Source: Nemertoderma westbladi
Taxonomy: Eukaryota; Animalia; Xenacoelomorpha
DNA: 56,454 nucleotides
Assembly (NCBI GenBank): GCA_032718475.1
Contig: JAUCBJ010000125.1
Location: 1 to 56,454 of the forward strand
Reading direction: 5' to 3'
Part shown: one piece after another, positions 21,473 to 42,084 of the stretch
Position numbering within the stretch: the first letter of the stretch is position 1
Layout of the letters: each line of letters opens with the position of its first letter
Notes under the pieces: model-generated
The model's database searches: none
What the model saw: only the letters and a program-made list of their open reading frames with translations
What the model was told of the DNA's origin: nothing
Translations under genes and position numbers: made by a program

Positions 21473-21999
21473 AGTAGTAGGAGAAGCATAGATCTCACGC
21501 AACTCCTCCCTAGCTTGGGCTACGGGCTGCATCTCGGAGGCAATTAAAAAATGCCAAATTTCTGCGCTAAATCGAGGTGTTTAATGACCATCTGTCACCA
21601 ACAGTATTGATTCGTGTCGTTGCCTTCAACCAATCGTTGCTTATCACCTACGCGTAGCCTAACCTCACGATGCCTGCCTTACTCGACAACTGTTACCACC
21701 CGCGAGTATTGATTCGTGTCGTTGCATCAACCAACCATCGCATATTCATCTTCGCGTAACCTAACTTCTCAACGCATGGCTAGCCCCCACCCCTCACTAC
21801 GCTATTATATTATATCGAATCGATTGCCAACCAACCAACTCAACGATTATTTACCCACCGCTAACTAGCCAGCCAGCCAGCCAGCCACATACATAACACT
21901 ACTAACGATGACGTGGTCATCTACACGCATCACCACACACATATACCCCACCCAATATTATATCGATTGCCAACTCCACGACTGCTGTCACCAAATCAA
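21473..21999 (+). repeat. Left TIR of the Polinton
   Basis: Near-perfect reverse complement of 39739-40259; degenerate similarity continues to about 22057. Internal direct repeats AGTATTGATTCGTGTCGTTGC. Confidence 0.95.
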
Positions 22000-22188
22000 C
22001 AAACCAACCAGTATGATACATGAGATTCCGTCACGTTCCAGCTATGCGTATACGAGCATTAGTGATTATTATTACGCAATAATTTTTTTGTTTATACTGT
22101 AGTTCCCTACCGGCTAATCAACCAATCAATAAACCGAATTTAGGCTATTTTTCAGTTTAAGACCTGTATTATTTTTGAAAATATCTTA

Positions 22189-22732: not shown

Positions 22733-22903
22733 CTTTTCCCCCTATATTATAAATATTTTATGATTATATATAAAATTTTACTATTTTTAAATAATCGAAA
22801 ATTGTAGTAGTATTTGTATATACAGTATAACAGTTTTGTTTGTTGTTGTTGTTGTTGTTGTGTATTGTGGTAATTATTTTCAATTTACTTTAAAATTTGG
22901 AAA

Positions 22904-23176: not shown

Positions 23177-23575
23177 TTTACAATATTGGAGAATATTTTT
23201 TATAGAAACGTAGTTCGAAGGTGTTGCTATTATATTCCTTATTTTTTTAGCAGCGAACATAAAAAAATCATAAGCGCGAAATTCTCGGGAAGTGATTTCC
23301 AAACCGCCGATGTTACCTATCATTATTTCGCGTATAAAGATGCTCACCATGCTTGAAATTACATCAGTCTATACTATAATTGGAAATAGCACCTTTTGTT
23401 GCAGCGAGCGTCACATACTGTAGTTGTGTCATATGTTAATTAAATATACAGTACTCTAATATTATTGTAGTTCCATCAATTATTGTTATATACATAGTAA
23501 TGGTGATGGTTTATTGATATTGATATTGATATTATATTATATTATATTGTTGATATATCTTAATAATAATAATAA

Positions 23576-24259
23576 ATGGCTGACTTTAATTCAGGCCCAT
23601 ATAATTTAAACTTTCAAATGGGAACAAGTATGATAATTTCTGGCCCATCTGGTTCCGGAAAGTCAACCTTTGTGGGGAATTTAATTAAACACAAGAATGG
23701 CTGCTTCAACGAAGCCCCCTTGCGAGTATTGTATTGTTACGGGAGCAATCCACCGACTATTCCCGGTATTACTCACCTTTACAAAGGTTTGCCCGAAAAT
23801 ATAAATAGATTAGTCAATAGTCGAGATTTATTAATTATAGATGATTTGTTAACAGAAACTGAGTCCAGTACAGCATTAACTGTATTGTTTACTAAGGTAG
23901 CTCATCATTCCAATATATTTATTTGTTTTATAACGCAAAACATGTTTTACGGTGGGAAGCATAACCGCACAAGATCAATTAATAGCCATACTTTAGTATT
24001 AATGAAAAATCCGAGAGACAGTCTATCGGTTTTAAATTTCGCAAAGCAAATGTTACCAGGGCAGACCAAATTTTTAGTTGATTCCTATCAAGATGCAACA
24101 ATTGAGCCATTTTCACATTTCTTAATTGATTTACGACAGGAAACACCCGAACATTTGAGATTTAGATCGGATATATTTCGTAATCATAATTGTTACATTA
24201 AAAATTACATTAACTATAAACGTAGCGAAAATAATAATAATAATAATAATAATAATTAA
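23576..24259 (+). CDS. A32/FtsK-like genome packaging ATPase
   Basis: Walker A GPSGSGKST, Walker B LLIIDD, plus ITQN and KNPRD, typical of Polinton ATPases. Confidence 0.95.
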   Translation: MADFNSGPYNLNFQMGTSMIISGPSGSGKSTFVGNLIKHKNGCFNEAPLRVLYCYGSNPPTIPGITHLYKGLPENINRLVNSRDLLIIDDLLTETESSTALTVLFTKVAHHSNIFICFITQNMFYGGKHNRTRSINSHTLVLMKNPRDSLSVLNFAKQMLPGQTKFLVDSYQDATIEPFSHFLIDLRQETPEHLRFRSDIFRNHNCYIKNYINYKRSENNNNNNNNN

Positions 24260-24299: not shown

Positions 24300-24683
24300 A
24301 TGAATAGACTTGTGCAGAAATATTGAAACGAACTGGAATTTCTACGCAGCGCTACCCCTCAACAAAGAACTTATTTTATTAACCATACAGCCAGTAACGA
24401 ATTAATACGGCTCATTGTAAATACTGCAATAAATGTTCTAAAAGGTAACGTACAATTGTCCCCGCATTCATTTAGAAATATTCGCTGCTATAAGAAGGTA
24501 TTGAAATCCCTCAACCGTAAGACAAAAAATATATCAAGTTACAGAAAAAAGTTAAGCAATCAATCTGGAGGTATACTGCCGTTTCTAATACCCTTACTCG
24601 GCATTGGTGCAAAACTTGCCGCGAGTGCCGGTGCCGCTGCCGCTGGGGCTGCTATTGCGAAAAAAATTAACCGTGGGCGGTAA
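24300..24683 (+). pseudogene. Polinton basic core-protein precursor (PW/pX-like) with a premature stop
   Basis: ATG at 24300 is in frame with ORF 24456-24683, with one TGA at 24324-26. N.LKGNV.L motif, basic tract, QSGG-ILPFL putative protease site, then a hydrophobic/amphipathic peptide. Confidence 0.75.
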
Positions 24684-24694
24684 TAATAATAATA

Positions 24695-24865
24695 ATGGTT
24701 AAAACGGGAGTAACATTTAGAAAATTATATTTAGTATCGAGTAAACCGTTAGCTACTGATTTAAAACCTCAAGATATACCTAGAGTAAATAGTACAAAAA
24801 GAAAACCATTCAAAACATCAACTTCGAAAAAAATAATCAAAAAATTTCAGTTGTTCTTACGGTGA
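24695..24865 (+). CDS. Short basic ORF (56 aa, MVKTGVTFRKLYLV...), possibly truncated
   Basis: ATG follows a (TAA)n leader like other genes of the element and fills the gap before the integrase. Confidence 0.35.
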   Translation: MVKTGVTFRKLYLVSSKPLATDLKPQDIPRVNSTKRKPFKTSTSKKIIKKFQLFLR

Positions 24866-24901
24866 TGCCCTTTATAAGAGATTTGAATATACATATTACT
24901 T

Positions 24902-26008
24902 GTGGTTGCCGAAAAGATGCCACGCAAGATGAAACCGATTTTAAACCGAAGCTTAGACAAAAAACTGTCAAGAATTTATTTAGATCCTTCATCCCCTGCG
25001 GGTTTTGCAAGTGTCGCAAAATTAGCAAAAGCTGCAAACATCAAACCAGCACGAGCTCAGAAATGGTTGAGCGGGCAAAAGACATACACCCTTCACGCTC
25101 CACGTAGACAACATTATCCAACATCTAAAATATTTACGGGAGGCATAAAAGATATATATATGATAGATTTGGTGGATATGCAGCAATATAAATCGCAAAA
25201 TAATAATTATAACTATATATTAACGTGCATTGATGCCTTCAGTCGGCTTGCTTTTGCCTATGCTATGAAAACAAAAAAGGGTATTGAAATTATTAGTATA
25301 TTGCAAAAAATATTCCAAAAGGGAAAACCAAACAGAATCGCCACGGATCAAGGTTCTGAGTTTCTAAATAAATCTGTAAGGAAATATTTAGATACGTTAG
25401 GTATACAGTATTACGTAATGTATTCTGTGAATAAGGCGGCTATTGTCGAGAGATTCAACAGAACCTTAAAAACAAAGATGTTCAAAATTTTCACCCAAAG
25501 GGGAAATAATATTTGGATAACAATTTTACCTAAGCTTATCTCAGCTTATAATAGGTCGTATCATAGAACAATACAAATGACTCCCATTGAAGTTAATAAA
25601 TTTAATGAAACTGAATTAATGAATAGATTATATGGGAAATATAGACAGATAAATCACAAGAAAATAAAATTTAAAGTTGGAGATACAGTACGATTATCTA
25701 TCGCTCGTACTGCTTTTGCTAAAGGCTATCGAGAACAATGGACACGTGAATTATTTATTATTCATCGGGTCAGGTTGGATAGAGTACCAGCGGTAATGTT
25801 CGATATTAAGGACAGCACCGGAGCTATAATAAAGGGCTCATTTTATTCTCACGAACTCCAAAAGGTCCACCCGAATAGTAACATTTATCTTCCGATTGAC
25901 AAAAAAAATATTGACAAACTTAAAGAACGTGTACGCAATGGGAAGAAAGAATATTTAGTCCGATTCATCGGATCCAAGAAACAGTCCTGGGTCCAGCATA
26001 TTAAATAA
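24902..26008 (+). CDS. Polinton retroviral-like (rve) DDE integrase with C-terminal chromodomain-like region
   Basis: Motifs IDLVDM, IDAFSR, TDQGSEF and VERFNRTLK; FKVGDTVR and KGY...WT; C-terminal EYLVRFIG...SWV. Confidence 0.96.
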   Translation: MVAEKMPRKMKPILNRSLDKKLSRIYLDPSSPAGFASVAKLAKAANIKPARAQKWLSGQKTYTLHAPRRQHYPTSKIFTGGIKDIYMIDLVDMQQYKSQNNNYNYILTCIDAFSRLAFAYAMKTKKGIEIISILQKIFQKGKPNRIATDQGSEFLNKSVRKYLDTLGIQYYVMYSVNKAAIVERFNRTLKTKMFKIFTQRGNNIWITILPKLISAYNRSYHRTIQMTPIEVNKFNETELMNRLYGKYRQINHKKIKFKVGDTVRLSIARTAFAKGYREQWTRELFIIHRVRLDRVPAVMFDIKDSTGAIIKGSFYSHELQKVHPNSNIYLPIDKKNIDKLKERVRNGKKEYLVRFIGSKKQSWVQHIK

Positions 26009-26259
26009 GCTTAGGTTTATACTGTATATTAATTCATTTTGGTCGCATATGACCGTAATTAATCAATATTAACTCGAATGATATTACTATACTATATAGT
26101 TCATCCGCTTTAAATAAAGCCAGTAAAATATTGATCCCTCGCATATACTGTAGAAGATGCGGCGATGAACGTGGTCACAGATGTCTATAATTTATCATTA
26201 TACTGTACTGTATGTACAAAGGAGTCAAGTAGAGAGAGCGAGCTTAAATAATAATAATA

Positions 26260-27132
26260 ATGGCCACAGATACATATATCACTCTACTTTCAGATAGCTC
26301 ATTGAACACTTATCCCAATAATAATCCTAGTGAGTTTACTGTTGATTTAGCCGAAGAATTATATATTGGTCCAAATGCCAAAGTTGGACTTGCCGAACTT
26401 CAATATCAAGCAACATACAGTAATATTACGCTGCAAACTCAAATTTCGCTGTCAATCGGGGTAGATGCAAAAGATGCCAAATTATATAGTTTATTTCCTG
26501 GTATGCATAACTCTATTCAAGTGATTATTGATGATATAAATAAACTGTTTAATTCTGAAGCGAAATATAGAGATTTCGAATTCATTTTTAATACAAATAA
26601 TTCTAGAATTAAATTTAAATTTCCTAAAAAGTTGAAAAAAATACAATTAAGTCTACGCGGCGATTTAATACAAATTCTAGGCTTAAATCCGTTATTGGAT
26701 CGGAATCATCCGGATATTCCGAATTGGGATATATACAGTACCACTACAGTAGATGAATTAAGCAATATAGAACAACCGATATTAATTTTAAATTATAGTG
26801 GACCAAAAATTTCGGAAATTGGCATTTTAGATTTTCCAGCTCCCACAAATATAACACGTAATAAAGACACAATTTTCATATACACAGATATTATTAAGAG
26901 CTCATTTGTTGGCGACGCTTTAGCTCCGCTCTTAAGAACCTGCCCTTTAACGCAATTAAATCGAAAATATATTAATCACGAATACGAGAGCATTTGCTAT
27001 TTCCCATTGTTGAATAAAAAACTAAAAACAATATTAATTACTTTACGTGACGGCCAAGGCCAATTAATTAACTTCAGCGGAGGTCGCACTGTTATAACAC
27101 TTAAGTTAATACGGGGTGGCAGTGATGGATGA
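26260..27132 (+). CDS. Minor capsid (penton, PX-like) protein 1
   Basis: Motifs YITLLSDSS...YPNN, VGLAELQY, FIYTDII...VGD...PLLR and I.ITLRD..G.LINF. Confidence 0.9.
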   Translation: MATDTYITLLSDSSLNTYPNNNPSEFTVDLAEELYIGPNAKVGLAELQYQATYSNITLQTQISLSIGVDAKDAKLYSLFPGMHNSIQVIIDDINKLFNSEAKYRDFEFIFNTNNSRIKFKFPKKLKKIQLSLRGDLIQILGLNPLLDRNHPDIPNWDIYSTTTVDELSNIEQPILILNYSGPKISEIGILDFPAPTNITRNKDTIFIYTDIIKSSFVGDALAPLLRTCPLTQLNRKYINHEYESICYFPLLNKKLKTILITLRDGQGQLINFSGGRTVITLKLIRGGSDG

Positions 27133-27970
27133 ATTCTACGTAAGGCTGCCGAGTAACTCCTGTCCAATTGATTTTCCCCGCAATAGCGCTAGTAATTATC
27201 AGATCAACTTACATGGCGCCTTACCTATAAACCCAAACGAAAACTGGGTGGTAGGTATAAAAAGTATATTTTACTTAGCAACGTTGCCGTCCATATATAA
27301 CAATGTAGAGAATGTTATTTTATTAAAAAAAGGGAAAAAAATTATTGAGGATACACTTCCATCCGGTTTGTTCTACAGTATCAATGACATTATAGATTAT
27401 TTTAACACAGGGGCATTGAAACATAAATTACAAATAGTTGAAAATACTCAGCAAAATAGATTGCAATTTATTTTAGGGAAAGCGGTGCGAGAGTTATTTA
27501 TAGGTCAACAATTAGCCTATTATTTTGGCATTACTGAAAATAATCTCGGTGCGAATTTAAATCCAAATTTTAAAATTATTTTGAAGACGAAAAATAATAT
27601 AAAGGGTTATTTAATAAAGGTTATCGGAAATGAAGAAAAAACTTTCCAGATGGTATTTTTATGCCCCCAACCACCCAACTCTATTCCAGAACCTAAGTCG
27701 AACATGTACGTGACTACTAATATAATTGAAAATCAATATATTAACGATTTTGGCTTAGCTTTACTTCGTCGCGTGGCGATACCTGATGACGTGAAATATG
27801 GTAGTATAATAAATAAAGAATTTGCCAAGGATACAATTCATTATATCCCTGTAAAAAAATCATATAAGATAACATACATTCATATTGAAATAACAGACAA
27901 ACAAGGAAAATATTTGAATTTTGAATACGGGACAACTTGTATTACCTTACACTTTAAAAAAATAAATTAA
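27125..27970 (+). CDS. Minor capsid (penton, PX-like) protein 2
   Basis: Motifs FYVRLPSNS...FPRN, WVVGI, MYVTTNII...LLR, YIPV and IEITD..G..LNF.YG...ITLHFKK. ATG at 27125 overlaps the stop of penton 1. Confidence 0.88.
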   Translation: MDEFYVRLPSNSCPIDFPRNSASNYQINLHGALPINPNENWVVGIKSIFYLATLPSIYNNVENVILLKKGKKIIEDTLPSGLFYSINDIIDYFNTGALKHKLQIVENTQQNRLQFILGKAVRELFIGQQLAYYFGITENNLGANLNPNFKIILKTKNNIKGYLIKVIGNEEKTFQMVFLCPQPPNSIPEPKSNMYVTTNIIENQYINDFGLALLRRVAIPDDVKYGSIINKEFAKDTIHYIPVKKSYKITYIHIEITDKQGKYLNFEYGTTCITLHFKKIN

Positions 27971-27971
27971 A

Positions 27972-28538
27972 ATGGATTCCGATTTATTTCAAAGATACAG
28001 TAAACCTCAATATGGGGGTTCAGACTCTAACCTTGCTGTTTTTAAAGGCGGAAGAAGTACCAGAGGCTCGACGCAAGTTCCTGTTTTTCGAGGTGGTTCA
28101 TATATTGACCCTTACGGTCAACAAATTGGTGCATTTGGTCCAAACTTAAAACAACGTCGTTTTCAACGTTATCCTAGAGGTATGAGGACAAATCAACACG
28201 GGGAAGGTATATTTACAGACGCTTTATCTACATTGAAAAAATTTGGTAAACCATTAGCTAAAAAAGTGTTACAAAAAGCTTTACCATTTACCACAAAATT
28301 TATGAGACAACACGTAATACCAAAAGGCAAGCGGGTCTTACATCAGCAGGCTAATACAGTTATTAATAAAGCATTAAATAAAATGAAACCATCAACCAGA
28401 TCTGTTGTAGAAAAAGTTTATAGAGATTTAAAGCGACCGACTAGACAGCCAATGTCTATGAACATACCTCATCGACGTAGTAAAAAGAGAAATATAAAAA
28501 AAGGCAAACTGAAACACTGCGAAAAAAGTATTTTTTAA
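27972..28538 (+). CDS. Polinton core protein (PZ-like) with putative protease sites
   Basis: QYGG, QIGA and QHGEGIF motifs, an amphipathic basic helix and an Arg/Lys-rich C-terminus. Lies between mCP and MCP. Confidence 0.8.
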   Translation: MDSDLFQRYSKPQYGGSDSNLAVFKGGRSTRGSTQVPVFRGGSYIDPYGQQIGAFGPNLKQRRFQRYPRGMRTNQHGEGIFTDALSTLKKFGKPLAKKVLQKALPFTTKFMRQHVIPKGKRVLHQQANTVINKALNKMKPSTRSVVEKVYRDLKRPTRQPMSMNIPHRRSKKRNIKKGKLKHCEKSIF

Positions 28539-28540
28539 TA

Positions 28541-29800
28541 ATGTCAATTATTAAGGAATTAGATTTATTTTCTACACAACCAATACAGACTGAATTTAAA
28601 GCAAAGCATTATGAAACAATTTATCCAGTATCCAATCTCCGAACTGAATCTAGGGAGGTCACGTTCCTTGTCCCAATATCCAATGAATTCTATACGAAAC
28701 TGCAAGATGCGTTATTAATTACAAAATGTACAGTACGCTGGGATAGGCGACTTGAAAACTCTCATATATATATGCTGAATTACCCCGCTGAAACTATGTG
28801 GAGTGATATTAAAATAGACCTTAATGAGAAGCAGGTTGAAAATAGCAATAACCATTATTTCTACAAGTCGTACTTATCCAATTTACTATTTACAACTTAC
28901 GAGGATAAAAATGGGTTACTGGGGGCGGGCGGTTTTCAACAGCCTTTATCCGAACACGGAAATGAAATTAATGCTGGTGCGCATCCTATTGGCGATGCCT
29001 TTAGTAAACAATTGCAATTTGTAAGCGGGTTGACGATTGATTTTGATACTGAAACTAAAATAATACAACCTGGGTATGATTTAAGAATGCATTTTAGAAA
29101 AGTATCAAATTCGTTTATTTTTAAAATCACTCCAAACGCAAACGCCGTGACAAATCTTCGACTAGAATTAGATGAAATAAAGATTCTAATCCCTAGAATG
29201 GAGGTTAATCCTGTAATAGAAAGCAGTCACCTAAAAGGTTTAGAGAGTTACGATATTGAATATCAATTCCAAAAGAAAGAGGTGACTACATTTACTATTC
29301 CCGCGCAAACCACAAATTACACCCAAACAAACATATTTGATGGTAAAAAACCAAAATTAGTTATTATCGGCTTCATAACAAATAACGCTTATTCAGGAGA
29401 ATTAATTAGTAATCCATTAAAATTTGAACATTTTAACCTTAGACGCGCGGAACTGATTGTAGACGGTCTTCCAGTAGGGGGTGTAATATACGAGCCTAAT
29501 TTTACAGATGGAACATATATTTTTGAGTATACACAATTAATGAAGAACATTAATACATATATTAACGGTTATGGGGGAAATAATATAGACCATGAAACCT
29601 ACTTAGCTAATTGTCCCCTCCTATCCTGGGACCTAACCACTGATGGTTATGTTAGAGATCCGCAACCCTCGATATATACTAACGGACAATTAAAATTAAG
29701 ATTTGCCGAACCGCTGGTTGAGACCGTAAATGTAATCGTTTTTAATATTTATGATCAATCATTAAGTTTAAATAGCAGGAAAGAAATACATATCGATTAA
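28541..29800 (+). CDS. Double jelly-roll major capsid protein (PY)
   Basis: N-terminal ELDLFS..P.Q, and P..VIIGF....AY.G....NP..F.HF; 419 aa. Confidence 0.92.
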   Translation: MSIIKELDLFSTQPIQTEFKAKHYETIYPVSNLRTESREVTFLVPISNEFYTKLQDALLITKCTVRWDRRLENSHIYMLNYPAETMWSDIKIDLNEKQVENSNNHYFYKSYLSNLLFTTYEDKNGLLGAGGFQQPLSEHGNEINAGAHPIGDAFSKQLQFVSGLTIDFDTETKIIQPGYDLRMHFRKVSNSFIFKITPNANAVTNLRLELDEIKILIPRMEVNPVIESSHLKGLESYDIEYQFQKKEVTTFTIPAQTTNYTQTNIFDGKKPKLVIIGFITNNAYSGELISNPLKFEHFNLRRAELIVDGLPVGGVIYEPNFTDGTYIFEYTQLMKNINTYINGYGGNNIDHETYLANCPLLSWDLTTDGYVRDPQPSIYTNGQLKLRFAEPLVETVNVIVFNIYDQSLSLNSRKEIHID

Positions 29801-29802
29801 GT

Positions 29803-30258
29803 ATGTTATCTACAGAGGACCTTGATATGTTTCCAGTGGGTGGTCACTATTTGGGAGCGTTTCCAGCTAACAAATTACCTAAATTAGATAATAATAATAA
29901 GCGGAGGGATTATGGGCTAATAGTGAATACCGATAAAGAGCATCTACCCGGGATTCATTGGATCGCTATATATATACGAGATAATGAAGCTGAAGTATTT
30001 GACTCGTTTGGACCAAAATATCCAAATAGATGTATCGAAAAATGGCTTGAGAAAAATTCCGCAAGATGGCGTACTACCCGCAAACAATTTCAAGACCCCA
30101 GGAGGACCACATGCGGTCTGTACTGTCTCTATTACTTAGTAAATCGAATTGACACAAACTATCCAATGAGGGCGTTTACAAATAATGTGGAAATAAATGA
30201 AATAATATTATATAATTGGCTTGTTAATTATTATAAAATAAACCAACAAACGTTGTAA
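29803..30258 (+). CDS. Adenain/Ulp1-like maturation cysteine protease
   Basis: NTD....PG.HW, FDSFG and Q......CG.YC give the catalytic H/D/Q/C set. Confidence 0.95.
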   Translation: MLSTEDLDMFPVGGHYLGAFPANKLPKLDNNNKRRDYGLIVNTDKEHLPGIHWIAIYIRDNEAEVFDSFGPKYPNRCIEKWLEKNSARWRTTRKQFQDPRRTTCGLYCLYYLVNRIDTNYPMRAFTNNVEINEIILYNWLVNYYKINQQTL

Positions 30259-30289
30259 TTAATCATTTAGCTTTTATGTATCAGATAAA

Positions 30290-30892
30290 ATGGATAATAT
30301 TATTTTTGTTGATTTTCAATACTATAAGATAGACAATAAGGAGTATCCGGTAGTATTTAAAGAATTTGCTATATTCGATTCTAATTGCACCAAAACTAAT
30401 GTAAAGACGTTTTTAATTAAAGGCCCACCTAATATTAAATTATCGGCATTAGATGCAGCCCACGTAAACAATTTACGAGATATGACTTCTCACTTGCCCT
30501 GGAACTATGGGGACATTTCGCAAGACGACTTTAAAAAATATATGAAGAGACATTTAAAATATAAAAAAAATATTCATATATTTGGGTTGATGAAGCGGAC
30601 AATATTAAACACCCAACTCGATGTTCTCGCACCAAATTCGGTTGAGAAATTGGGAATATATAAGCAATATCACGAGTATTTAACCCCATGCCGGTTCCAC
30701 GACCGATTTACTACAATAGAAAATAAATGCACGTTTCACTTAAACACAAGGGATAACTGTCTGCGGTACTGCTCAGCAAAACGTGTTGGCGGATTTGAGT
30801 TGCTACACTTTTTCATGAGAAAGCGTTTAACTGCAACTGTTGATGTCGATGATAAACAGAAAGAAATAACTGCGGTGGAAGATGTACTGTAG
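30290..30892 (+). CDS. DnaQ/DEDD-fold nuclease-like protein with putative ECHC zinc site
   Basis: IFVDFQ...KEFA, H.LPW..G-like segment, and C-terminal CxxH...C. Confidence 0.6.
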   Translation: MDNIIFVDFQYYKIDNKEYPVVFKEFAIFDSNCTKTNVKTFLIKGPPNIKLSALDAAHVNNLRDMTSHLPWNYGDISQDDFKKYMKRHLKYKKNIHIFGLMKRTILNTQLDVLAPNSVEKLGIYKQYHEYLTPCRFHDRFTTIENKCTFHLNTRDNCLRYCSAKRVGGFELLHFFMRKRLTATVDVDDKQKEITAVEDVL

Positions 30893-31524
30893 GTTTACTC
30901 TAAGCATGTAATGTGATGGGATAATATAATTGTTTTAATGTCAATAAAAATAATAAAAACATTAAAATCTATTTTTAATATCTCAGTTTGACTGAAGGTG
31001 TAGGGCTTAAGTTTACACTTACAAACACACCGTACCTACCGGTAGCGGGCTTTTGCATCAGAGTTTAACTACCAGTAGCTAGCTAGCTGATTTTACTACA
31101 TATACCATACCAACAACACTAAACTGAGTTGTAGAACAGCAGAATGGCTCCGACGGCAACCACAGAGCTTTAGCTTTACCGGTACCATACTTATTAATAA
31201 TAAAATTAAATTAAGTCGACATGGGGGGGTTTGTGAATGCAGCATTAGAGGGGGCCCTCCTAACAATAGGCCTACTGGTACCGGCACTGTAGCACTCTTG
31301 TACCTGTATACTTGAATAGAGCAAGAGCATACCAGACTGCCAGTTTCTTTGATTTAAGGATTACGCTATTACACTTGAATGCTTCCAATTTTCTGTTTAC
31401 AACTTTAATTGGTCTAATCTACATTACTGCTGGTGGGCTACTACTGTCGCATAGGTAAGCCTATACAGCTATAGTTAACTTTATGCGGGGCCCTTTTTCG
31501 AATGTTGACCCAATATGGTTTATG

Positions 31525-31921
31525 GTTAACCTTTAGTACTCGCGGATAGGTAAGGTGCACTTTCATTCGGTTAGGCCTATAGGCTTAATGACTACTCCTC
31601 AACTGAAAGTTGACTAGCTCATTGATACAATAGGTGTGGTTAGGTACCGGTAGGGCTATAGGACCTATAAAATCCCCTCACACTCTCTGTTGTATGCTTC
31701 TTTACAGTTAACCTTTAGAACTCTCGAGCGCCATCATTCAACCAGTCATATAATGACTCCACTCGGATACAATAGGTGTGGCTCTCGGTATACCTAACTA
31801 ACTAAGCCTATATAAAATCCACCTCATTCTCTGTTACTAACATTCACTCTATGTTGACGGTGGGACTATATAAAACATAGTTAATTTATTTATGTATTCG
31901 CTTTTTTAATTATATATAAAA
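31525..31921 (+). repeat. Degenerate direct repeats with four TATAAAA boxes in the Polinton central non-coding region
   Basis: Units 31525-31691 and 31707-31835 share GTTAACCTTTAG, TAATGACT, GATACAATAGGTGTGG, TATAAAATCC and CTCTGTT. Further TATATAAAA copies at 31867 and 31913. Confidence 0.75.
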
Positions 31922-32018
31922 TAGATTCGGTCTACTAAGTTTTATAACAATAACTGATAGGCCTAACAATAACAATAACAACAACCCTAAATTTATTACT
32001 GTATTAGGTCTATACTTT

Positions 32019-32403
32019 TTATAGTCCTATATGTGAGTCCTCCTGTAGAGTTTCCTCCATTACCGGTCTTTGCGTTGGTATATTGAAGTGAAGTGTGTCA
32101 TCTCTATCATTCTCCCAATTTTCGTTAGAGGGTGAGCTTCCCGATATTCGCGATGGTTGTATCTTTATAACTAGCGAGAAATCTTTTGAAATTTCAACTG
32201 TTGTAGGCGATAAAGGTAGACCATCTACTTGACCAACTTCATATTCTATCGAAGTGAATCCAATCTCGAATTTTTTGTTTATATATATCGTAACTCCATC
32301 TCAGCAATATTTGATGCAGTGAGATACGTTTCATCGCATGATTGCAATTCGATTTTTATACTACACTTTTCAACTCACGGTTATTGAAAAAGGCAAATGT
32401 CAT
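32019..32403 (-). pseudogene. Possible frameshifted Polinton gene
   Basis: About 93 open codons (DGVTIYINKKFEIG...DSHIGL*) can be joined to ATG 32403 by two frameshifts. Minus-strand TATATAA near 32570. Confidence 0.35.
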
Positions 32404-33120
32404 CTTTGAGTTGACAGTTGAGGTAAGTTGTCGTTGTCGTCGTCGTCGTCGTAACTAGGTACCGGTACTAGAAAGAGTATCTTTAAATTGAATAGGTACC
32501 GTAAGCCTACTGATATTTTTTTTTCTTTTGTTTAACAAAATTATAGTTCACTGTCAGAAAAATTGAGTTTATATATATTTTTGTAGAGGGTCACAGATGT
32601 GTACATTACAAAATTCTCATAGTTAACAAAATGCACAACATAAACCTTTCCCATGCGGATTAGCGATATATGCTATGGTCGTTGTTCTATTCTGAATGTA
32701 GGGAGATGCATAGCGGATGTTTTAATAATAATATGTGCCGGTATACAGACTAGTAACAGATAGGAGGACATCGTCTTTGACTATGAATACCAGCACATAC
32801 CCCTAATCTTTTTCTCACTGAGCTTAGCGTTGCCTGCTGTACACACGCACAAGTAACAGATGCGCTATTGTAGCTTACTCGTGAGCAACAATGCTTAGCT
32901 AGCTAGCTAGCCACGGCTGCTGAGTATACTATGCCTACTTGAGTGTTACAAGCAAATGCTCTACTGAAGTTGGTTAGTTAATTTCCCATCAAACTAGTTG
33001 TTGATTTAAAAAAAAAATTCATAAATTTCTTCTCCCTTCAATTTAATATATATATATATTTTACAGTAAAAAATCTCCACCACCACCAAACAGCAACAAC
33101 AACAATAAATTTCATTCGTA

Positions 33121-33702
33121 CTAATTATATTTTACATCAAAAACCCTCACACCAAACAATAATAAATTATTAACCAGTTTGTTGAAAATAGGATAATATA
33201 TATGAAATTTAAACGGGGAACACATTAATGTACATTTACCGGTGTAGAAGCTGCATACAACAACATTATTACTTATTCTGACTTTACAGTTATTGAATAT
33301 TTCAGGCTCGTATGAAATTTCTAGTTTAACATTATCAAATATAACATAAAACCCGATATTGTTTATAAGTAACCTATAAATTACAGTATCGATACTAAAA
33401 ATATAAGTACACAAATTGATTGATTTAAAAATCAAATTAATGTTTGTTTTTTCGAATATATGCTTTTTCACTTTATTAAAATTATATTTTCTACCGAGAA
33501 TTGTTATTCGACCATTTGTAAACATTAATATAGTTGCACCAAATACCTTATATATAAACTGATTAGGTTTGAGTACAATTTTACCATTCAATTGATTTTT
33601 TAATTCTTTTAAATTAAGTCCATAAATGATCTGCTTACAACTTATATTTTTATTTACTATTTGATAATTCATCATCAACACCGTCATCTTTTTGTTCTTC
33701 AT
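33121..33702 (-). CDS. Divergent TATA-binding protein (TBP)-like protein
   Basis: Two-repeat TBP core pattern: IVN...SC / ATILMFTNGRITILG and SINLC / SYEPEIF...VVCSFYTGKCTL. Confidence 0.8.
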   Translation of the reverse strand: MKNKKMTVLMMNYQIVNKNISCKQIIYGLNLKELKNQLNGKIVLKPNQFIYKVFGATILMFTNGRITILGRKYNFNKVKKHIFEKTNINLIFKSINLCTYIFSIDTVIYRLLINNIGFYVIFDNVKLEISYEPEIFNNCKVRISNNVVVCSFYTGKCTLMCSPFKFHIYYPIFNKLVNNLLLFGVRVFDVKYN

Positions 33703-36700
33703 AAATTGGTATATTTGATATTTTTATAGGTTTTTTGAGGTTTGTTTTATAGTGCCCCCAAGGAAGCGATTGATTTTTATTAATCCAATAAAGTTTATCG
33801 TCAAAGCTACTGAGAGCAAATTTATTTTGCTTTAAGGTATAAATACGATGTAATTTAGATTGAAATCTGTGTATGTTTTTTTTTATTTCTTCATTTGAGT
33901 TATATGCTTTTAAATATTCTTCATGTGTAATATTCGTTTCCACAACAGCTCTTGTAATACCTTTTGCTCTACGAATATTTTTATTATTCCATTCCAAAAT
34001 TGAATATAATTTTGGTCTTAAAAATACTGCTTGTTTAATTTCACGTGGGGCTAGTTCGTCTTTACAGTAATAGAGCCTGGATTTATTTTTATCACTGTAG
34101 AGAGGGTGATCCTTGGGGTAATTGGATGTATCTAAAATATTATTTTTAATTAATGCTTTAAAAAAAATATTCTGCGATGTATTATAGTAACAACCTATCA
34201 AAGAGTCAGTGTCTGACGCAACAATTTCAATACGGCAGTTTAATTCTTTCTCAATAGGTAGCAATTTATTGTAAAACAGATCATACATATCCAATTTAGC
34301 CAAGTCCAACACAGTGCTACCAATAAATATAGGCTTATCGAGAGTTACAGAGTCTTTCACTAATAAATGTCCCGATAGTGTATTATTGTATATTATAAAT
34401 TGTTCATGATTAATACGATTTACCAATTGATCGCATTTATCATTGCTATTTGTAATACGAAAGTTACATCGATCTCTTATCTTTTCTATTGATTTGCCAA
34501 ACAGTGAATTATTGAGCAATTTCGCAACAGCTGTTTCAATGTAACTTTTTGCTAGGCGCCTTTGATTAATATTAAAATCAATGTAATTTTTAAATACAAA
34601 TTCTTGTTGAAAAGAATATAATTTATGTAGTTTAGTAACAATTAATCCATGTTTTATATAAAATTTTAACAGTTTCAAATGTAAATGATAAAACTCTTTA
34701 TCAAATTGTGTCAGCATGAGTTTTGGTATAGGCATTCTATATTTACGGGAGGTACCTCTTTGTATTGACAAGTTATTAAATTGTTCCCGCATATAAGGCG
34801 AAAGCATTGATTCATTTATACTTAAATGCTCAGGGGCTAACGGTAATTGTAATGTTTGATCGTGAATAGCCTTGGGATAATTTAAATCACATATTAAAAA
34901 ATATCCAGTAGATCCATCAATGTCTAAATCTCCCAAGTACTCGATTAGTTTTTCTGGAATTGCATTCTCTAAATGTTTAATACTTACTTCTTTGAATTGT
35001 GAGGTGGGTAGTTTTTTACTTAAATTCCCAGAATATAAAGAGTTGAAATCAATATTAAAAATATGGCATTCTTCCTTAGTTGAATCATATGTACTTGTAC
35101 CTGGTATATTTGATTCTATATAATGCTTTCGACAAAATGAAACACCACCCCTAATTGATTTTTCAAAATCTCTATATGTCTGATAATCCTTTATTAATTC
35201 TATTTTACATTTATTATATTTTAGCGCGCAATCATAGGTAAATGATGCGATACTACAGTAAAAAACCGCTTCTAAATCGTAATTTTGTTTACAAACATTC
35301 CTAAAATTCTCAAATATATCGGCAAGCAAACAAACATCGAGTTTTAAATAGGCTAAAAGATAATCTTTGAGATTCACGCAGTCGAATTCAACCCATGATA
35401 TTCCCGCAAACCTATAATCTTCAATTGTGCATGTTTTTGACTTAAGTTACTAAAAAAATTATTTATAGACGGCAAACCAGTATCATTAAATTTATTAATA
35501 TCTGTCAAGTACTCGTATGGAAATACTCCTTTCCGTTTAATTGTTGAGTTATTCAAGTTTGGATAAAAATATTTCATTTCTTGTAGAGTAATAGGTAAAA
35601 TTGAGCTTATATCATGACTGGCTACATCCTTTGTTGAACACTCAACTAAATTACTTAAAGAAAAGCTTAAAAATTGATATGTGTCTAAGAAACGTAACTC
35701 AATTTTCTTAGAAGTGTTTTTAATTGGGATAAACGCACTCAGTGAAATATATCGTTCTGTATTTCTCGGTATAACCTTTATATCCCAATCTGTGTATTTC
35801 TTATCTCTAAATCCGCTTTGTAATATACAATGTACATCATACTGATTGGCATTGTGCCCACAAAGTACATACAGGTATCGTTTCAACGATAAACTTCGGT
35901 TACAACTATTACAGGCTGCCGCAATATATTTACCTGTAATATGTGAATGATGTCTGTTTTTCCCTACTTTATTATTTAAAGTAACATTACAATAAAAACA
36001 AAATTTTGCTTGTTCAAAATTTACAAAATCAATATTAGTAAATGACATAGTTTTATGAGTGTATATGTCTGACCAACAACATAATTCAGTTATATCAGTA
36101 TATAATGAATCTAAGAAATCTTGAATACAATTATTATTATTTGTCTTTACAAATGTTTTCAAATGACATTTTGGAGGGTCAATTAATTCAGTATTGGGAA
36201 CAATTAAATAACTCACAGCACACGGTATATGCTCCTGTATAATTTGATTATTAACTGACGGTTGTAAGATACATTCTATATCAAAGTAGGTGACAAACAA
36301 TGGGGATAAGGTTCTATCTAAATTTGTAAAACTAATGTGTGTTCTTTTTTTAGGTAGTGTCTCTCGCTGACTTCTTCCTTGGTAGCAAGCGAGACGGTGT
36401 TGATGAAGAACTTCCGCACGAAAAAAATGAGCCAAACACCTTTCGCAATATTTCCTATTTTGGATATGAAGAGCTTTCGTATTCAGCAATCGATTCAAGT
36501 TAGTTATGGAAACATAATGATTCTGTTTAGGTACATTGTTATTTTTTACTACAAGTAATATATTTAATAACTGTTTATCGGGTGTAATTTTACTAAACGG
36601 AGGTTGTCTTAATATAGATACCGGGGTGCGTTTTTTGTCGTTATTCCAACATAGTAAATTAATAATATATTTTGAATTTTGTTTTTCAAAAAGTTTAATA

Positions 36701-37704
36701 GCTAGCTTCCACTCTGTTGGATAATCTTTGTTCCCATTGTCAAAAATGAAATGACTCATATAATTTTTGTACGACGAAGTACGGTTTTTGTGATCTTTCA
36801 CTTTGCTACTAAATTTTGCGGATATAATTGCCCATTTAAAACAGTTATTATCAGCCGATTTTACATTTATAACACATCGTTTAACTGATAAAGCCTTAGG
36901 TAATTCCATATATCCATGCCCCTTATATAGTAACGAGCTACACTTAGATTCAGCTAATTTAATTTCAACCCTTAATAAAGATTTAATACGCCACCCCGAA
37001 CCACGTGTGTTAAAGATGGCTATTTTTTGTAATATAATTTCCACAACATACTCAAACCATGTCTCAAAACTTTGCGGTGAATCTACAGTATTAATAGCAC
37101 CACCGGAAGAATTAAAATAAAAGGTTTCCAATTGTTCACCTTGTGAAAAATGTGATCTGTACATTAATACATTTAGACCTAACCACAGTCTAAGAACATT
37201 CACATCTTTCAATCTGTCTAATATTAACTGAAGAATATTACCTCGAATTTGCGTTAATGCTGTTTCTACATCGGGATAATCTCTAGAAGTTGGGAGGTCG
37301 TGGACATAAATTTCAAGACGATTATCGTGAGCTTCTTGTTCCCTCGTAAAAATTGTTGCGCATGTACCAAGAGCCACCCTTAAGTTTTTTCTGGATATTA
37401 TATTTTTATGTTGCGAAAATTTACGCTTTCTTGTGTAGTAACATTTCAAGTGACAATCGTGTCGTAGATAATCGTCATATGTATACTCTTTATTACAGGT
37501 AGAACAAGTCAATTGATAGGTGCGGAACTCCATTTCTTTACAACCAGTAGTTGTAAAATGTCGTTTACAAATTTCGCTGCATGAAGTCACGACATGACAC
37601 TTTAAACAAGAATAACTTTCAAAATGTGAGCGTAGGTGGCGTAAATAATTATGTCTAGTTACATTCATATGACAGAATGAACAACATATTGTTATTTTAT
37701 CCAT
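33650..37704 (-). pseudogene. Protein-primed family B DNA polymerase (pPolB) split by a 1-bp frameshift
   Basis: N-terminal C2H2-like fingers; DNNCF...HY (vOTU-like). ExoI FDIE, HNH/EndoVII-like insert CFYC...HSH.TG....ACNSCN, ExoII HNA..YD and ExoIII YLKLD. Polymerase motifs DFNSLY, KLLNNSLFGK and SDTDS. One extra base in the T5 run at 35434-35438 restores QKTCTIEDY...W..F.C.NLKDY. Confidence 0.95.
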
Positions 37705-37893
37705 GTTGAAGTTTGTTTAGATAAATAATAATAATAATAATAATAAAATATCTCCAAAGATTAAAATAAAATGAAATGAAATGTTATTGACTACATCTAA
37801 ACATTTATATGCTAGCGAGGGAAATAATTTTAAACCAATCACCAAACACATATGACTATTGGAAACCGTAAAGAGTTTAACTTATGATTAGGC

Positions 37894-38953
37894 TTACATG
37901 TTAGGATCTGGTTTCCATGGAGAATTAGTAACAGGCTCTACTAGAACTGGGTTACTGACAACTTTCTGTTTCTTTGCAGGTGATGCGTTGGTAAATTTAC
38001 TCGATGATCTTGGCTTCCAAGGTAATATTTCAGGAAAGACCTGTTGCGGTTGAGAGCAGCTCTCTTCAACATCCGGATTAGGTGATGGGATCTCTACGAA
38101 CGCTTTAGGTTTATCCAAAAGGACAAAGCCGTCAACGTGGGCTTCAGTAAGAGAAACACCATCCAGCGATTCTTTGAGAAAACTAATATGGGCTTTATCA
38201 TTCAAGTAATGCAACTCGATAGAATTTCCGCCGACACCTACTTCAGTAGAATTATCGGTGTTGGTGATAATAATTTTTTTATTATTGGTTTTAATCATTT
38301 TGAGACGGTCTGATAATTGAATGATATTTTTATCAAAAAGATGCTTGTCTGTTTCAGCAACTTGGTTGTCCCACTCTCGCAACAAAACAGTTAGTTCCTG
38401 TTTTGACAAATTGAAACCTGTATAATAGTTAAAACCAACACTATTCAACGTATCTGAGGCTGATTTTCCATAAGCCAACATAGTTGGTTCCTTTAAAAGC
38501 TGTTACAAATCCAATAAACTCTGGATTTGATAATTCAATGTAGAATTGATCGCTAATAATCTCTAGCGGTGGAGAGAGAAATTGCAATAATTTCCCTCTG
38601 TATTGAATTAGAACTTCAGTAAAAGCTTTGTTGAGAACTTTACATTTGCCTTGTTTCTGAACGTAAACATCACCCGATGTGGGGTTGATGGAAATATTCA
38701 AATTTCCCCGCGCAAAACGAAGAGTGGGATATATCCTACCTGGTATAATTGCTGGTCTGGATTGATGTTGGTTGTTGTTGGTTGTTTCTAGAATGTCTAA
38801 CATATAGCGGGTATCTTGATGGGAAAAACAAATTGATTCGTTGTCCTCCTGAGATTCCACAATAAAATACTTGCTGTGAACGACGGTACAAGTATATTTA
38901 TTGTAAGTAAATTTCCAGCTATTTGTTGCTCCAGTTTTTTGCGTTAAGGCCAT
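37894..38953 (-). pseudogene. PC4-like ssDNA-binding protein split by a frameshift
   Basis: VTAFKGTNYVGLWK at the end of ORF 38441-38953 and GFNLSKQEL..L in ORF 37894-38481 together form a PC4 pattern. Shift near the T4 run at 38464-38467. Confidence 0.65.
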
Positions 38954-39017
38954 AATAATAATAATAAATACGAAAAATATTACAAGTGATAAATTTTAAA
39001 CTGTATCGCTGTAATAA

Positions 39018-39301
39018 ATTGACACCATAGTTCTCACTCTAAAATTGTGTTTGGTCGGAAGACGACGCCTAAGAAAAATGTTGCTGAGTTCGACATTAGG
39101 TATCGACACAAAAACAAAAATCGGGTGAGACACGTAGCTCAGATTTTCGTTTTTAGGTCGATACCCAATGCTGGAATCAGTATCATTTTATGAGGCGTCG
39201 TTTTCCGACCAACGAATATACAACGAGTAAGATAATGTATAAATTATTAAGGAAATAACACAATGTCAGAGTGAGAACAAAAAATTAGATATGGTATCAA
39301 T
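39018..39301. repeat. Long imperfect inverted repeat (hairpin) flanked by 21-bp direct repeats
   Basis: TTGGTCGGAAGACGACGCCT (39051) pairs with AGGCGTCGTTTTCCGACCAA (ends 39212), with further inner and outer arms. ATTACAAGTGAT(A/G)AATTTTAA at 38979-38999 and 39316-39336. Confidence 0.9.
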
Positions 39302-39315
39302 ATATTACCATGAAG

Positions 39316-39356
39316 ATTACAAGTGATGAATTTTAATAAAAGCATTCAGTTATATA
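39316..39356 (-). promoter_or_regulatory. Putative TATA + initiator promoter for the leftward PC4-pPolB-TBP cassette
   Basis: Minus-strand TATATAA (39356-39350) and TCACTTGTAAT with its A 32 bp downstream, the same spacing as the left promoter. Confidence 0.6.
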
Positions 39357-39738
39357 TATAAAAATTTGCGATGTGGCATAGTCAACGAAGAAGAGATGGT
39401 ACGTGTCATAATCATCAACGAATAAGAAAAGAGATGGGGAGCAACGTGGATGAATAGCTGGCTGGTTGATTGCGTGGATAGGAAATACGTGAAAGAATAT
39501 GAATCATAGGGTTGTGTGTGTGTGCGTGTGTGTAATAATCAATAATTATTATAATAAAAAACGCACAGTATAATGTTAGCGGTGGAAGCCTTTCAATATG
39601 GCACAGATGCTGCGGGATCGGTTAGCTTGAGTAACTACTATGGAAATGTTGTTCGTATACGTGTAGCTGGAACGTGGCGGAATTTCAACACGTATCATAA
39701 TAGCGTTGGACTACTGGTAGGCCGCTTGGTTGGTTGGA

Positions 39739-40259
39739 TTGATTTGGTGACAGCAGTCGTGGAGTTGGCAATCGATATAATATTGGGTGGGGTATATGGG
39801 TGGTGATGCGTGTAGATGACCACGTCATCGTTAGTAGTGTTATGTATGTGGCTAGCTGGCTGGCTAGCTAGCGGTGGGTAAATAATCGTTGAGTTGGTTG
39901 GTTGGCAATCGATTCGATATAATATAATAGCGTAGTGAGGGGTGGGGGCTAGCCATGCGTTGAGAAGTTAGGTTACGCGAAGATGAATATGCGATGGTTG
40001 GTTGATGCAACGACACGAATCAATACTCGCGGGTGGTAACAGTTGTCGAGTAAGGCAGGCATCGTGAGGTTAGGCTACGCGTAGGTGATAAGCAACGATT
40101 GGTTGAAGGCAACGACGCGAATCAATACTGTTGGTGACAGATGGTCATTAAACACCTCGATTTAGCGCAGAAATTTGGCATTTTTTAATTGCCTCCGAGA
40201 TGCAGCCCGTAGCCCAAGCTAGGGAGGAGTTGCGTGAGATCTATGCTTCTCCTACTACT
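39739..40259 (-). repeat. Right TIR of the Polinton
   Basis: Reverse complement of 21473-21999; ends CCTACTACT. Confidence 0.95.
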
Positions 40260-40432: not shown

Positions 40433-40451
40433 TAGAAGCTATATCCGTTAT
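40433..40451 (-). promoter_or_regulatory. Non-tRNA primer-binding position, complementary to an LTR-internal site (candidate self-priming PBS)
   Basis: Minus strand after the LTR reads ATAACGGATATAGCTTCTA. The LTR plus strand at 7623-7641 reads ATAACGGATATACGTTCTA. Confidence 0.6.
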
Positions 40452-41895: not shown

Positions 41896-42082
41896 TTAAC
41901 CTGCGGGATTTTTCAGACCACCGTGTTAATCCAAAAGTTAAACGCGGGTCAGCCTAAACACCCAACTACACCCAACTTTTACCAACTTCCACCCAACTCT
42001 GCAACCACACCCAAATTTAATCCAACAGCATCCAACTTATACCAAACTACTGTATGGCACCAAACTTCCACAAATTACAATA
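41896..42082 (+). repeat. Probable piggyBac-type terminal fragment with CACCCAACT minisatellite
   Basis: Starts TTAA-CC. Segment 41946-42082 is an inverted copy of 46227-46409, which adjoins the piggyBac transposase 3' end. Confidence 0.5.
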
Positions 42083-42084
42083 TG

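What the first reader, a model, noticed from the sequence alone, without database searches (positions are those of the whole stretch)
33121..33702. Polinton encodes a divergent TATA-binding-protein homologue overlapping pPolB
Seen: both TBP half-repeats are recognisable. ATILMFTNGRITILG resembles TALIFSSGKMVCTG, and SYEPEIF...SFYTGKCTL resembles YEPELF...IFVSGKVVL. The ORF is intact and overlaps the 3' end of pPolB. Known: TBP is not in the Polinton core gene set, and Polintons lack an RNA polymerase; viral TBP-like factors are typical of large DNA viruses, where they drive late transcription. Inference: this may be an element-specific promoter-recognition factor or a dominant-negative against host TBP.
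Basis: partly seen in the sequence, partly recalled or inferred. Interest (0 to 1): 0.8.

Follow-up and report, generated by a model that had tools for sequence, protein, structure and literature searches.

The report
Polinton's own rewired TATA-binding protein
A virus-like Polinton element in what is likely an animal genome carries a heavily altered TATA-binding-protein gene, kept intact in most sister copies and overlapping the end of its DNA polymerase gene, which it likely uses to steer the host's RNA polymerase to its own packaging and capsid genes.

Summary
ORF 33121-33702 (-, 193 aa) lies in an 18.8-kb TIR-bounded Polinton (21473-40259) and overlaps the pPolB stop by 53 nt. It passes Pfam's TBP cut-off, matches TBP in the ESM Atlas and is modelled as a two-lobed saddle (the model rests on a TBP alignment). 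Sister copies show excess synonymous changes (10 of 20 listed sites, P=0.005) and one in-frame indel among those listed. It is not a canonical TBP. Three intercalating Phe (the fourth is uncertain) and both TFIIB-binding Glu are kept, but the central Asn pair and most base-reading residues differ. No TFIIB gene was found in the element. Most likely it is an altered-specificity TBP that recruits host TFIIB/Pol II to the element's own promoters (about 50%; inferred). A candidate site, TATAC[AT]GTA, sits before all four + strand gene clusters, but it was found post hoc and its core is a common word in this window. In print I found only a 'TBP' label in one MELD-virus figure legend. This scan has noted Polinton TBPs on other DNA (12 unchecked notes). 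Verdict: new variant of viral TBP mimics.

The parts
33121..33702 (-). Divergent TBP homologue, 193 aa (likely start at M10/M11, 33675/33672); overlaps the pPolB 3' end
   Evidence: Pfam TBP above cut-off; Atlas; profile versus shuffles; models and fold searches; sister-copy variation
33722..33751 (-). Two canonical TATAAAA words inside the pPolB coding sequence, 49 and 26 nt before M1 (76 and 53 nt before M10): candidate host-TBP promoter of the TBP gene
   Evidence: Sequence; function inferred; TATAWAW occurs 2.6 times per kb on this strand, so chance is possible
33650..37704 (-). Protein-primed family B DNA polymerase, split over two frames (35374-37704 and 33650-35446) in this copy
   Evidence: Frames; family-B motifs read by eye (DFNSLY, KLLNNSLFGK, DTDS); no Pfam, PHROG or PDB hit for the polymerase
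21473..22058 (.). Left terminal inverted repeat, starting AGTAGT
   Evidence: 419 nt at 99% plus further arms; flanked by AACCGG
39650..40259 (.). Right terminal inverted repeat, ending ACTACT
   Evidence: followed by AACCAG, a 5 of 6 match to the left flank, read as a 6-bp target-site duplication
22093..22101 (+). TATAC[AT]GTA word, 196 nt before the 147-aa ORF
22819..22827 (+). TATAC[AT]GTA word, 85 nt before the RING-like ORF
23445..23453 (+). TATAC[AT]GTA word, 131 nt before the packaging ATPase
26018..26207 (+). Three TATAC[AT]GTA words (26018, 26144, 26199) before the 290-aa ORF that heads the capsid block
   Evidence: none destroyed by the sister-copy changes listed (not significant)
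23576..24259 (+). Packaging ATPase (A32-like P-loop)
   Evidence: Pfam Pox_A32 E=0.0015, below cut-off
24300..24683 (+). Virion-core-like ORF with an adenovirus pX-like C-terminus; start interrupted in this copy
   Evidence: Pfam Adeno_PX E=0.011, below cut-off; sequence
24917..26008 (+). Retroviral-type integrase
   Evidence: Pfam rve E=1.9e-11
26260..28538 (+). Three tightly packed ORFs (290, 281 and 188 aa), likely minor virion proteins
   Evidence: ORFs; no significant Pfam family; role inferred from position
28541..29800 (+). Major capsid protein
   Evidence: 35 homologues at 20-27% identity, two of them named capsid proteins from Porites lobata
29803..30258 (+). Adenovirus-type cysteine protease
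   Evidence: Pfam Peptidase_C5 E=2.4e-5, above cut-off
37894..38953 (-). Two overlapping ORFs (170 and 195 aa) upstream of pPolB, unassigned
   Evidence: no Pfam hit; Atlas below 0.9

Best explanation
The Polinton encodes a conserved, heavily altered TBP homologue that likely binds a variant TATA-like word in the element's own promoters and likely recruits the host's TFIIB and RNA polymerase II to switch on the packaging and capsid genes. Shown: TBP homology, position at the end of the replication block, purifying selection, and retention of F116/F190/F207 and E186/E188 equivalents (yeast numbering) with changes at N69, N159, V122, T124, P191, I194, L205, V213 and T215. Inferred: (1) it is made early with pPolB, from canonical TATA words read by host TBP; (2) its kept Phe residues kink DNA while the changed base-reading face shifts specificity; (3) its intact C-terminal stirrup (YEPEIF) docks host TFIIB, since no viral TFIIB was found; (4) the site is TATAC[AT]GTA ahead of the + strand gene clusters (about 0.3 for this step alone).
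For: Homology. Selection: 10 of 20 listed non-overlap sites are synonymous against 4.65 expected, P=0.005; 9 of 10 listed indels fall outside the ORF and the one inside is in frame. Residue map: E132/E134 align with Glu residues that are invariant in 78 of 78 TBPs and bind TFIIB (Ravarani 2020). KSHV ORF24, a proven late-gene TBP mimic, also changes V122, T124, L205, V213 and T215 while keeping the Phe residues, with the same V213->T. Changes at I194/V203/L205 alter yeast TBP specificity and P191 constrains the first base; three of these four differ here. No TFIIB family among the 24 element frames scanned with Pfam. TATAC.GTA is the top de novo 9-mer in the four intergenic stretches before + strand genes (4 of 4, 6 copies); no word reached that level in 300 Markov or 300 host-non-coding null sets; it is absent before pPolB and the 170-aa ORF, which have canonical TATA words.
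Against: No binding, expression or activation data. Both central Asn positions differ (K18 or Y13 by alignment; T99), whereas ORF24 keeps both, so DNA binding may be weak or of another kind. The N-terminal strand is unresolved in both models (pLDDT <50) and global fits are modest (rmsd 4.4-5.8 A; TM about 0.45). The core TACWGTA is enriched across the whole window (51 against 8.8 expected), 8 of 18 TATACWGTA matches lie outside the element, and the four regions were chosen after the word was noticed. No shared word at a fixed distance from the 10-12 + strand starts was found. The 147-aa and RING-like ORFs have both canonical and variant words, which blurs an early/late split.
Confidence: 0.5

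Rival explanations
1. Decoy or repressor: the protein keeps the TFIIB stirrup and a basic surface but no productive promoter specificity, so it titrates host TFIIB or sits on TATA promoters (the host's, or the element's own early promoters) and dampens transcription.
For: TFIIB-binding Glu residues kept while both central Asn positions and most base-reading residues differ; no fixed-distance promoter word before the virion genes.
Against: A pure TFIIB sponge would not need the three or four DNA-kinking Phe residues, T112, L114, R196 and K211 equivalents, which are kept; a variant TATA-like word is concentrated ahead of the + strand clusters.
Confidence: 0.18
2. Non-transcriptional DNA-bending or single-strand-binding helper: the TBP fold has been reused to bend the terminal origins or to hold displaced strands during protein-primed replication, integration or packaging.
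For: The gene is coupled to pPolB on the same strand; pI 9.8; a divergent Giardia TBP binds ssDNA (PMC12209930, passages).
Against: The best-conserved stretch is the TFIIB-binding YEPEIF stirrup, which such a role would not need. The Giardia protein lacks three of four Phe residues, whereas this one keeps at least three. The candidate word is absent from both TIRs.
Confidence: 0.14
3. Substitute TBP with roughly normal specificity: it supplies TBP activity to the element's ordinary TATA promoters (Pol II, or Pol III through Brf) in cells where host TBP is limiting or regulated away.
For: Canonical TATAWAW words lie before several element genes and in the non-coding middle region; E186 also binds Brf1/Brf2; part of the N-lobe basic stripe remains (K77, H81, K85).
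Against: Nine base-contacting positions carry residues seen in 0-5 of about 76 aligned TBPs; the ATPase and capsid-block heads have no canonical TATAWAW within 450 nt.
Confidence: 0.13
4. Decaying remnant of a captured host TBP gene with no present function.
For: Very long branch (5.9 changes per column); no relatives in two large protein collections; this copy of the element shows decay in other genes; minor sister contigs carry a one-base gap or skip the 5' part of the ORF.
Against: Synonymous excess and avoidance of frame-breaking indels across sister copies; 193 open codons in DNA of about 25% G+C; selective retention of functional motifs.
Confidence: 0.05

Closest known systems
Cellular TBP family (Pfam PF00352; yeast 1ytb/7o4i, human 5fur, archaeal 1mp9)
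   Same: Two-lobed saddle topology; F116, F190, F207, E186, E188, T112, L114, R196 and K211 equivalents
   Different: About 20% identity; N69/N159 not retained; N-terminal stirrup hairpin and helix H2 each about 5 residues shorter; about 10 extra residues after strand S1'; encoded by a mobile element; cannot be placed in the tree
Beta/gamma-herpesvirus TBP mimics (KSHV ORF24, EBV BcRF1, HCMV UL87) (PMC12529657: abstract and section 15 read)
   Same: Virus without its own RNA polymerase encodes a TBP-like domain with Phe residues kept and base-reading residues changed; this is the working model here
   Different: ORF24 is 752 aa with Pol II- and ORF34-binding domains, keeps both Asn residues and is reported as incompatible with direct TFIIB binding (section heading seen); this protein is a bare 193-aa core that keeps the TFIIB stirrup; no partner proteins are known
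NCLDV TBP-like proteins (Ravarani et al. 2020, PMC7221094; passages and sections 8, 11, 12 read)
   Same: Divergent viral TBP with the key Phe kept; best Foldseek hits in the viral library are such proteins; some Atlas clusters are Nucleocytoviricota
   Different: Those viruses mostly encode their own TFIIB and conserve the stirrup Glu poorly (about 40% at C.L3.2); here both Glu are kept and no TFIIB gene was found in a 19-kb element
'TBP'-labelled gene in a MELD virus with adintovirus-like PolB (Starrett et al. 2021, PMC8502044, legend of Fig. 5; section 3.4 read)
   Same: A TBP-like gene in a midsize pPolB virus
   Different: Only a label in a legend; the figure is not viewable, so the virus and sequence are unknown to me; the section concerns mainly non-animal datasets; no analysis of residues, selection or promoters was seen
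Polintons/Mavericks (adintoviruses)
   Same: TIRs, 6-bp target duplication, pPolB, rve integrase, packaging ATPase, protease, major capsid protein
   Different: TBP is not among the genes discussed in the Polinton papers whose text I searched; VLTF3 is the transcription factor named there

Membership tests
TBP family (PF00352) | Profile score above the curated cut-off, two repeats | tested here: met
   26.3 bits against 22.9, 2 stretches
TBP family (PF00352) | Two-lobed saddle fold | tested here: met
   Top five of 48,161 chains are TBP, Z 8.7-10.0, rmsd 4.4-5.8 A, about 160 residues aligned; next Z 6.2. The model was built on a TBP alignment, so this is not independent; the Atlas feature search is (29 of 30 hits)
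Canonical TBP | Inner intercalating Phe in both lobes (F116, F207) and F190 | tested here: met
   F61, F152, F136 in two alignments
Canonical TBP | F99 in the N-terminal stirrup | tested here: inconclusive
   F49 aligns by sequence, but a 5-residue gap follows and both models place it in strand S3
Canonical TBP | Central Asn pair N69/N159 | tested here: not met
   T99 at N159 in both alignments and in phmmer; K18 or Y13 at N69, register unstable, with N17/N19 nearby
Canonical TBP | TFIIB-binding Glu pair in the C-terminal stirrup (E186, E188) | tested here: met
   E132, E134; invariant in 78 of 78 aligned TBPs; role
Canonical TBP | N-lobe basic patch for TFIIA/Mot1/TAF1/Brf1 | tested here: inconclusive
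   K77, H81, K85 align with R137, R141, K145; K133 position deleted; K138, E93, R105 not kept
Canonical TBP | Binds and bends TATAWAW DNA and nucleates initiation | not testable with these tools
   Needs EMSA/SELEX and transcription assays
Herpesvirus late TBP mimic (ORF24/BcRF1/UL87) | Large protein with Pol II-binding and partner-binding domains around the TBP domain | tested here: not met
   193 aa, single domain against 752 aa
Herpesvirus late TBP mimic (ORF24/BcRF1/UL87) | Cognate variant TATA word at late promoters | tested here: inconclusive
   Candidate TATAC[AT]GTA before four cluster heads; no fixed-distance word before each gene
NCLDV orthogonal TBP-TFIIB system | Own TFIIB (and RNA polymerase) in the same genome | tested here: inconclusive
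   No TFIIB or polymerase family among 24 frames scanned with Pfam; several ORFs are unassigned and a very divergent TFIIB could be missed
Polinton/Maverick | Long TIRs with AG-type ends and a 6-bp target-site duplication | tested here: met
   (5 of 6 match)
Polinton/Maverick | rve integrase, packaging ATPase, cysteine protease, major capsid protein | tested here: met
   (ATPase hit below cut-off)
Polinton/Maverick | Protein-primed family B polymerase | tested here: inconclusive
   Motifs visible, no profile hit; split over two frames in this copy

The most novel reading that the evidence does not exclude
A 19-kb Polinton runs a one-protein early-to-late switch: a bare TBP core with a rewired DNA face reads a private TATAC[AT]GTA box at the heads of its packaging and capsid gene clusters and hands them to host TFIIB and Pol II. 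This would be a minimal orthogonal TBP-promoter pair that needs neither a viral TFIIB (as in giant viruses) nor a multi-protein complex (as in herpesviruses).
Probability: 0.3. Interest if true: 0.82.

Novelty: new variant of a known kind. Interest (0 to 1): 0.6.

Why it matters
How Polintons control their virion genes, and so whether and when they make particles, is open. An element-encoded TBP under selection gives a concrete, testable switch: one small protein, a candidate site and a predicted host partner (TFIIB). It would extend viral TBP mimicry from genomes of over 100 kb to a 19-kb integrating element, in a third design (host TFIIB, no viral helpers). A natural TBP lacking the near-invariant Asn pair would also inform how TBP specificity can be rewired.

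Tried and rejected
Single-sequence searches found no relative: 0 of 151 candidates in the 5.8-billion set, 0 in 1.84 billion representatives, none in viral contigs. Related Polinton loci could not be fetched with pPolB or the capsid alignment, and no genome is held, so gene order and promoter words could not be compared across families. The tree (73 of 79 sequences; six under 165 aa left out; quick method) cannot place the protein: branch 5.9, long-branch join, so no donor is claimed. De novo searches for a shared word near the starts of 10 or 12 + strand genes gave nothing beyond nulls; the 'box about 30 nt before each gene' pattern of earlier scan notes was not reproduced. Conservation of the three candidate words in 26009-26259 is uninformative: 0 of 11 listed substitution sites fall in 27 of 251 positions (about 1.2 expected, my estimate). 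No RNA holder was listed; run X5 is only guessed to be RNA and is not used. The second structure model was less confident (pLDDT 62) and did not resolve the first strand. The profile comparison included the query in the target alignment and is not used. Rfam found nothing in 30850-33150. A PC4-like look of the 170/195-aa ORFs (by eye, recalled pattern) had no Pfam or Atlas support. A complex prediction with TFIIB was not run: no host TFIIB sequence was in hand.

Full report
Observation. The pPolB frame stops at 33650-33652, so the overlap is 53 nt from M1. M10/M11 are the likelier starts, because TBP similarity begins near residue 14; the overlap is then 26 or 23 nt.

Setting. The ORF lies in an 18.8-kb element, 21473-40259, with terminal inverted repeats (419 nt at 99% plus further arms) that begin AGTAGT and are flanked by AACCGG/AACCAG. 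The + strand carries a 147-aa ORF, a RING-like ORF, an A32-like ATPase, a pX-like ORF, an rve integrase, three unassigned ORFs, a major capsid protein (35 homologues, two named capsid proteins of Porites lobata), a C5 protease and a 200-aa ORF. The minus strand carries two unassigned ORFs, pPolB and the TBP-like gene. pPolB is identified by motifs only (no profile hit) and is split over two frames near 35374-35446. An animal host is inferred from the capsid relatives and the pX-like gene.

Is it TBP? Evidence that does not rest on a TBP alignment supplied by me: Pfam PF00352 above the curated cut-off with two stretches; phmmer against the PDB, best hits microsporidian TBP over residues 14-176 at E=0.004; ESM Atlas, 29 of 30 hits TBP clusters at 0.94 with 201-203 shared features, although the recognition value (1689) is below the tool's trust line. 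A profile of 78 TBPs rebuilt without the query gives 25.4 bits against at most 10.4 for 2000 shuffles (the 78 were gathered with a profile that included the query). AlphaFold2 on those TBPs gives two TBP-type lobes (pLDDT 67). The top five of 48,161 chains are TBP (Z 8.7-10.0, next 6.2), and viral-library hits are led by giant-virus TBP-like proteins. A second model on 35 sequences agrees at lower confidence. These fold results lean on the alignment. The first strand and residues 107-119 are unresolved.

Which surfaces are kept? Positions were mapped through a plant TBP in two alignments, with yeast numbering taken by counting from N69; the list of DNA-contact positions comes from Table 1 of PMC12529657. 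Kept: F116, F190, F207, T112, L114, S163, R196, V203, K211, and E186/E188, the two Glu that bind TFIIB (PMC7221094, section 11). Uncertain: F99 (F49 aligns, but a 5-residue gap follows) and the register of strand S1. Changed, to residues seen in at most 5 of about 76 TBPs: N159->T, V161->I, V122->T, T124->L, P191->N, I194->K, L205->C, V213->T, T215->M; N69 aligns with K18 or Y13. In yeast, I194/V203/L205 changes alter specificity and P191 constrains the first base (PMC1636458, passages). So the kinking and TFIIB-docking parts are kept and the base-reading face is rebuilt (inference). This differs from most NCLDV TBPs, which lose the stirrup Glu and come with their own TFIIB. No TFIIB family was found in 24 frames of this element.

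Is it under selection? Contigs of four public runs cover the ORF region (30 of 30 bins in three runs, 25 in the fourth; 1097 contigs laid in X1), which fits a multi-copy family; depth is not copy number. The tool showed 40 of 91 difference rows; 24 lie in the ORF and none makes a stop. Of the 20 outside the overlap, 10 are synonymous, against 3.9 expected uniformly (P=0.002) or 4.65 when matched by change type (P=0.005); five of the 20 come from one minor haplotype and are not independent. Of 10 listed indels, nine lie in the non-coding DNA just downstream and one, of 3 nt, lies in the ORF. Against this, one minor X3 contig has a one-base gap in the ORF and a minor form skips 33576-33809. Several sites differ between this copy and nearly all sister contigs, so this copy has aged since insertion.

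Promoter clues. Earlier scan notes (unchecked) reported shared variant TATA boxes in other TBP-bearing Polintons, which prompted this test. No word is shared at a fixed distance from the + strand starts. Most of these genes abut or overlap. Four have sizeable upstream spacers (147-aa ORF, RING-like, ATPase, 290-aa head of the capsid block), and all four hold TATAC[AT]GTA on the sense strand, six copies in 1049 nt. It is the top de novo 9-mer there. No 9-mer did as well in 300 Markov or 300 host-non-coding null sets, and this word never reached six copies in 20,000 host samples. It is absent from the spacers before pPolB and the 170-aa ORF, from the TIRs and from the 2.2-kb middle region. The ATPase and capsid-block heads have no canonical TATAWAW within 450 nt, while pPolB (-105) and the TBP gene (-49, -26, inside pPolB) do. 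Cautions: the word was noticed by eye before these tests; its core is enriched window-wide; 8 of 18 matches are in host flanks; host DNA is less AT-rich (62% against 68-80%); distances to the ATG vary from 61 to 242 nt; and two + strand genes have both kinds of word. Sister-copy variation does not break the three words at 26018-26207, but the test lacks power.

Mechanism. Most likely (0.5) the gene is expressed with the replication block, the protein binds a variant TATA-like site ahead of the packaging and capsid clusters, and its intact stirrup recruits host TFIIB and Pol II, giving an early-to-late switch like that of beta/gamma-herpesviruses but with one small protein. All functional steps are inferred. 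Rivals: decoy or repressor (0.18), replication or packaging helper (0.14), substitute TBP of normal specificity (0.13), remnant (0.05).

Origin. No relative was found in two large collections, and the tree cannot place the protein. It is far too diverged to be a recent capture of a host TBP or TRF2.

Literature. [quoted passage not shown] 5 of Starrett et al. 2021 (PMC8502044: passages and section 3.4 read, one supplementary file searched with no hit, figure not viewable; preprint 10.1101/697771: passages). Term look-ups found no TBP in the main text of three Polinton/PLV papers (PMC12220804, 10.64898/2026.06.19.733378, PMC11131425). PMC10675990 mentions TBPs only in mirusvirus-like elements. 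PMC7221094 has no occurrence of 'polinton' in its main text; its supplements and those of the other papers were not searched and may list such genes. The library lacks most subscription journals. This scan holds 12 distinct unchecked notes on Polinton TBPs or their boxes in other genomes, none matching this sequence; they are leads, not support. One of them (e1-8605585) describes a TBP that lost its partner surfaces, unlike this one.

Verdict. A real, selected, non-canonical TBP homologue in a Polinton; a new variant of viral TBP mimicry. Interest 0.6; 0.82 if the private-box switch is true (probability 0.3).

Noticed in passing
window 35374-35446: pPolB of this copy is split over two frames; its N-terminal part has zinc-finger-like and HNH-like Cys/His motifs (by eye).
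   Followed up: partly
window 37894-38953 (-): Two overlapping ORFs (170 and 195 aa) may be one interrupted gene; by eye they resemble PC4-type ssDNA-binding repeats (recalled pattern); Atlas gave only sub-threshold PCNA-like clusters.
   Followed up: partly
window 30893-33120: 2.2-kb stretch inside the element with no ORF of 100 aa, holding a roughly 142-nt duplicated module (16-nt exact repeat at 31624/31766) each followed by a canonical TATA word, and further TATA words at 31869 and 31915; no Rfam match.
   Followed up: partly
window 22904-23176 (+): 90-aa RING-finger-like ORF in the Polinton (zf-RING_2 E=0.0018, below cut-off).
   Followed up: partly
window 23560-26260 and 37705-38970: Runs of (TAA)n directly precede the ATG of several + strand genes (ATPase, 56-aa ORF, 290-aa ORF), and runs of (TTA)n precede minus-strand genes (170-aa ORF, pPolB).
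   Followed up: no
window 24695-25107 (+): Two short ORFs (56 and 80 aa) between the pX-like gene and the integrase; no significant Pfam family.
   Followed up: partly
window 11316-19145 (-) and 50230-56375 (-): Two BEL/Pao-type LTR retrotransposon coding regions (by eye); the first has a 1935-aa open frame.
   Followed up: no
window 6956-7876 and 40448-41399: A roughly 0.9-kb sequence present twice at 98-99% identity, 33.5 kb apart, flanking the region; likely a young non-autonomous repeat.
   Followed up: no
window 41959-46373: Inverted repeats of 30-78 nt around a 4.4-kb segment that holds a reverse-transcriptase ORF (44136-45548), with a 54-nt inverted pair at 42111/42624.
   Followed up: no
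whole window: The near-palindrome TACWGTA is enriched about six-fold (51 against 8.8 expected), in host non-coding DNA as well as the element.
   Followed up: partly
L001:857-2566 and L006:2572-4281: Viral contigs encode a 570-codon frame with an N-terminal TBP-like domain fused to a long basic C-terminal region.
   Followed up: no
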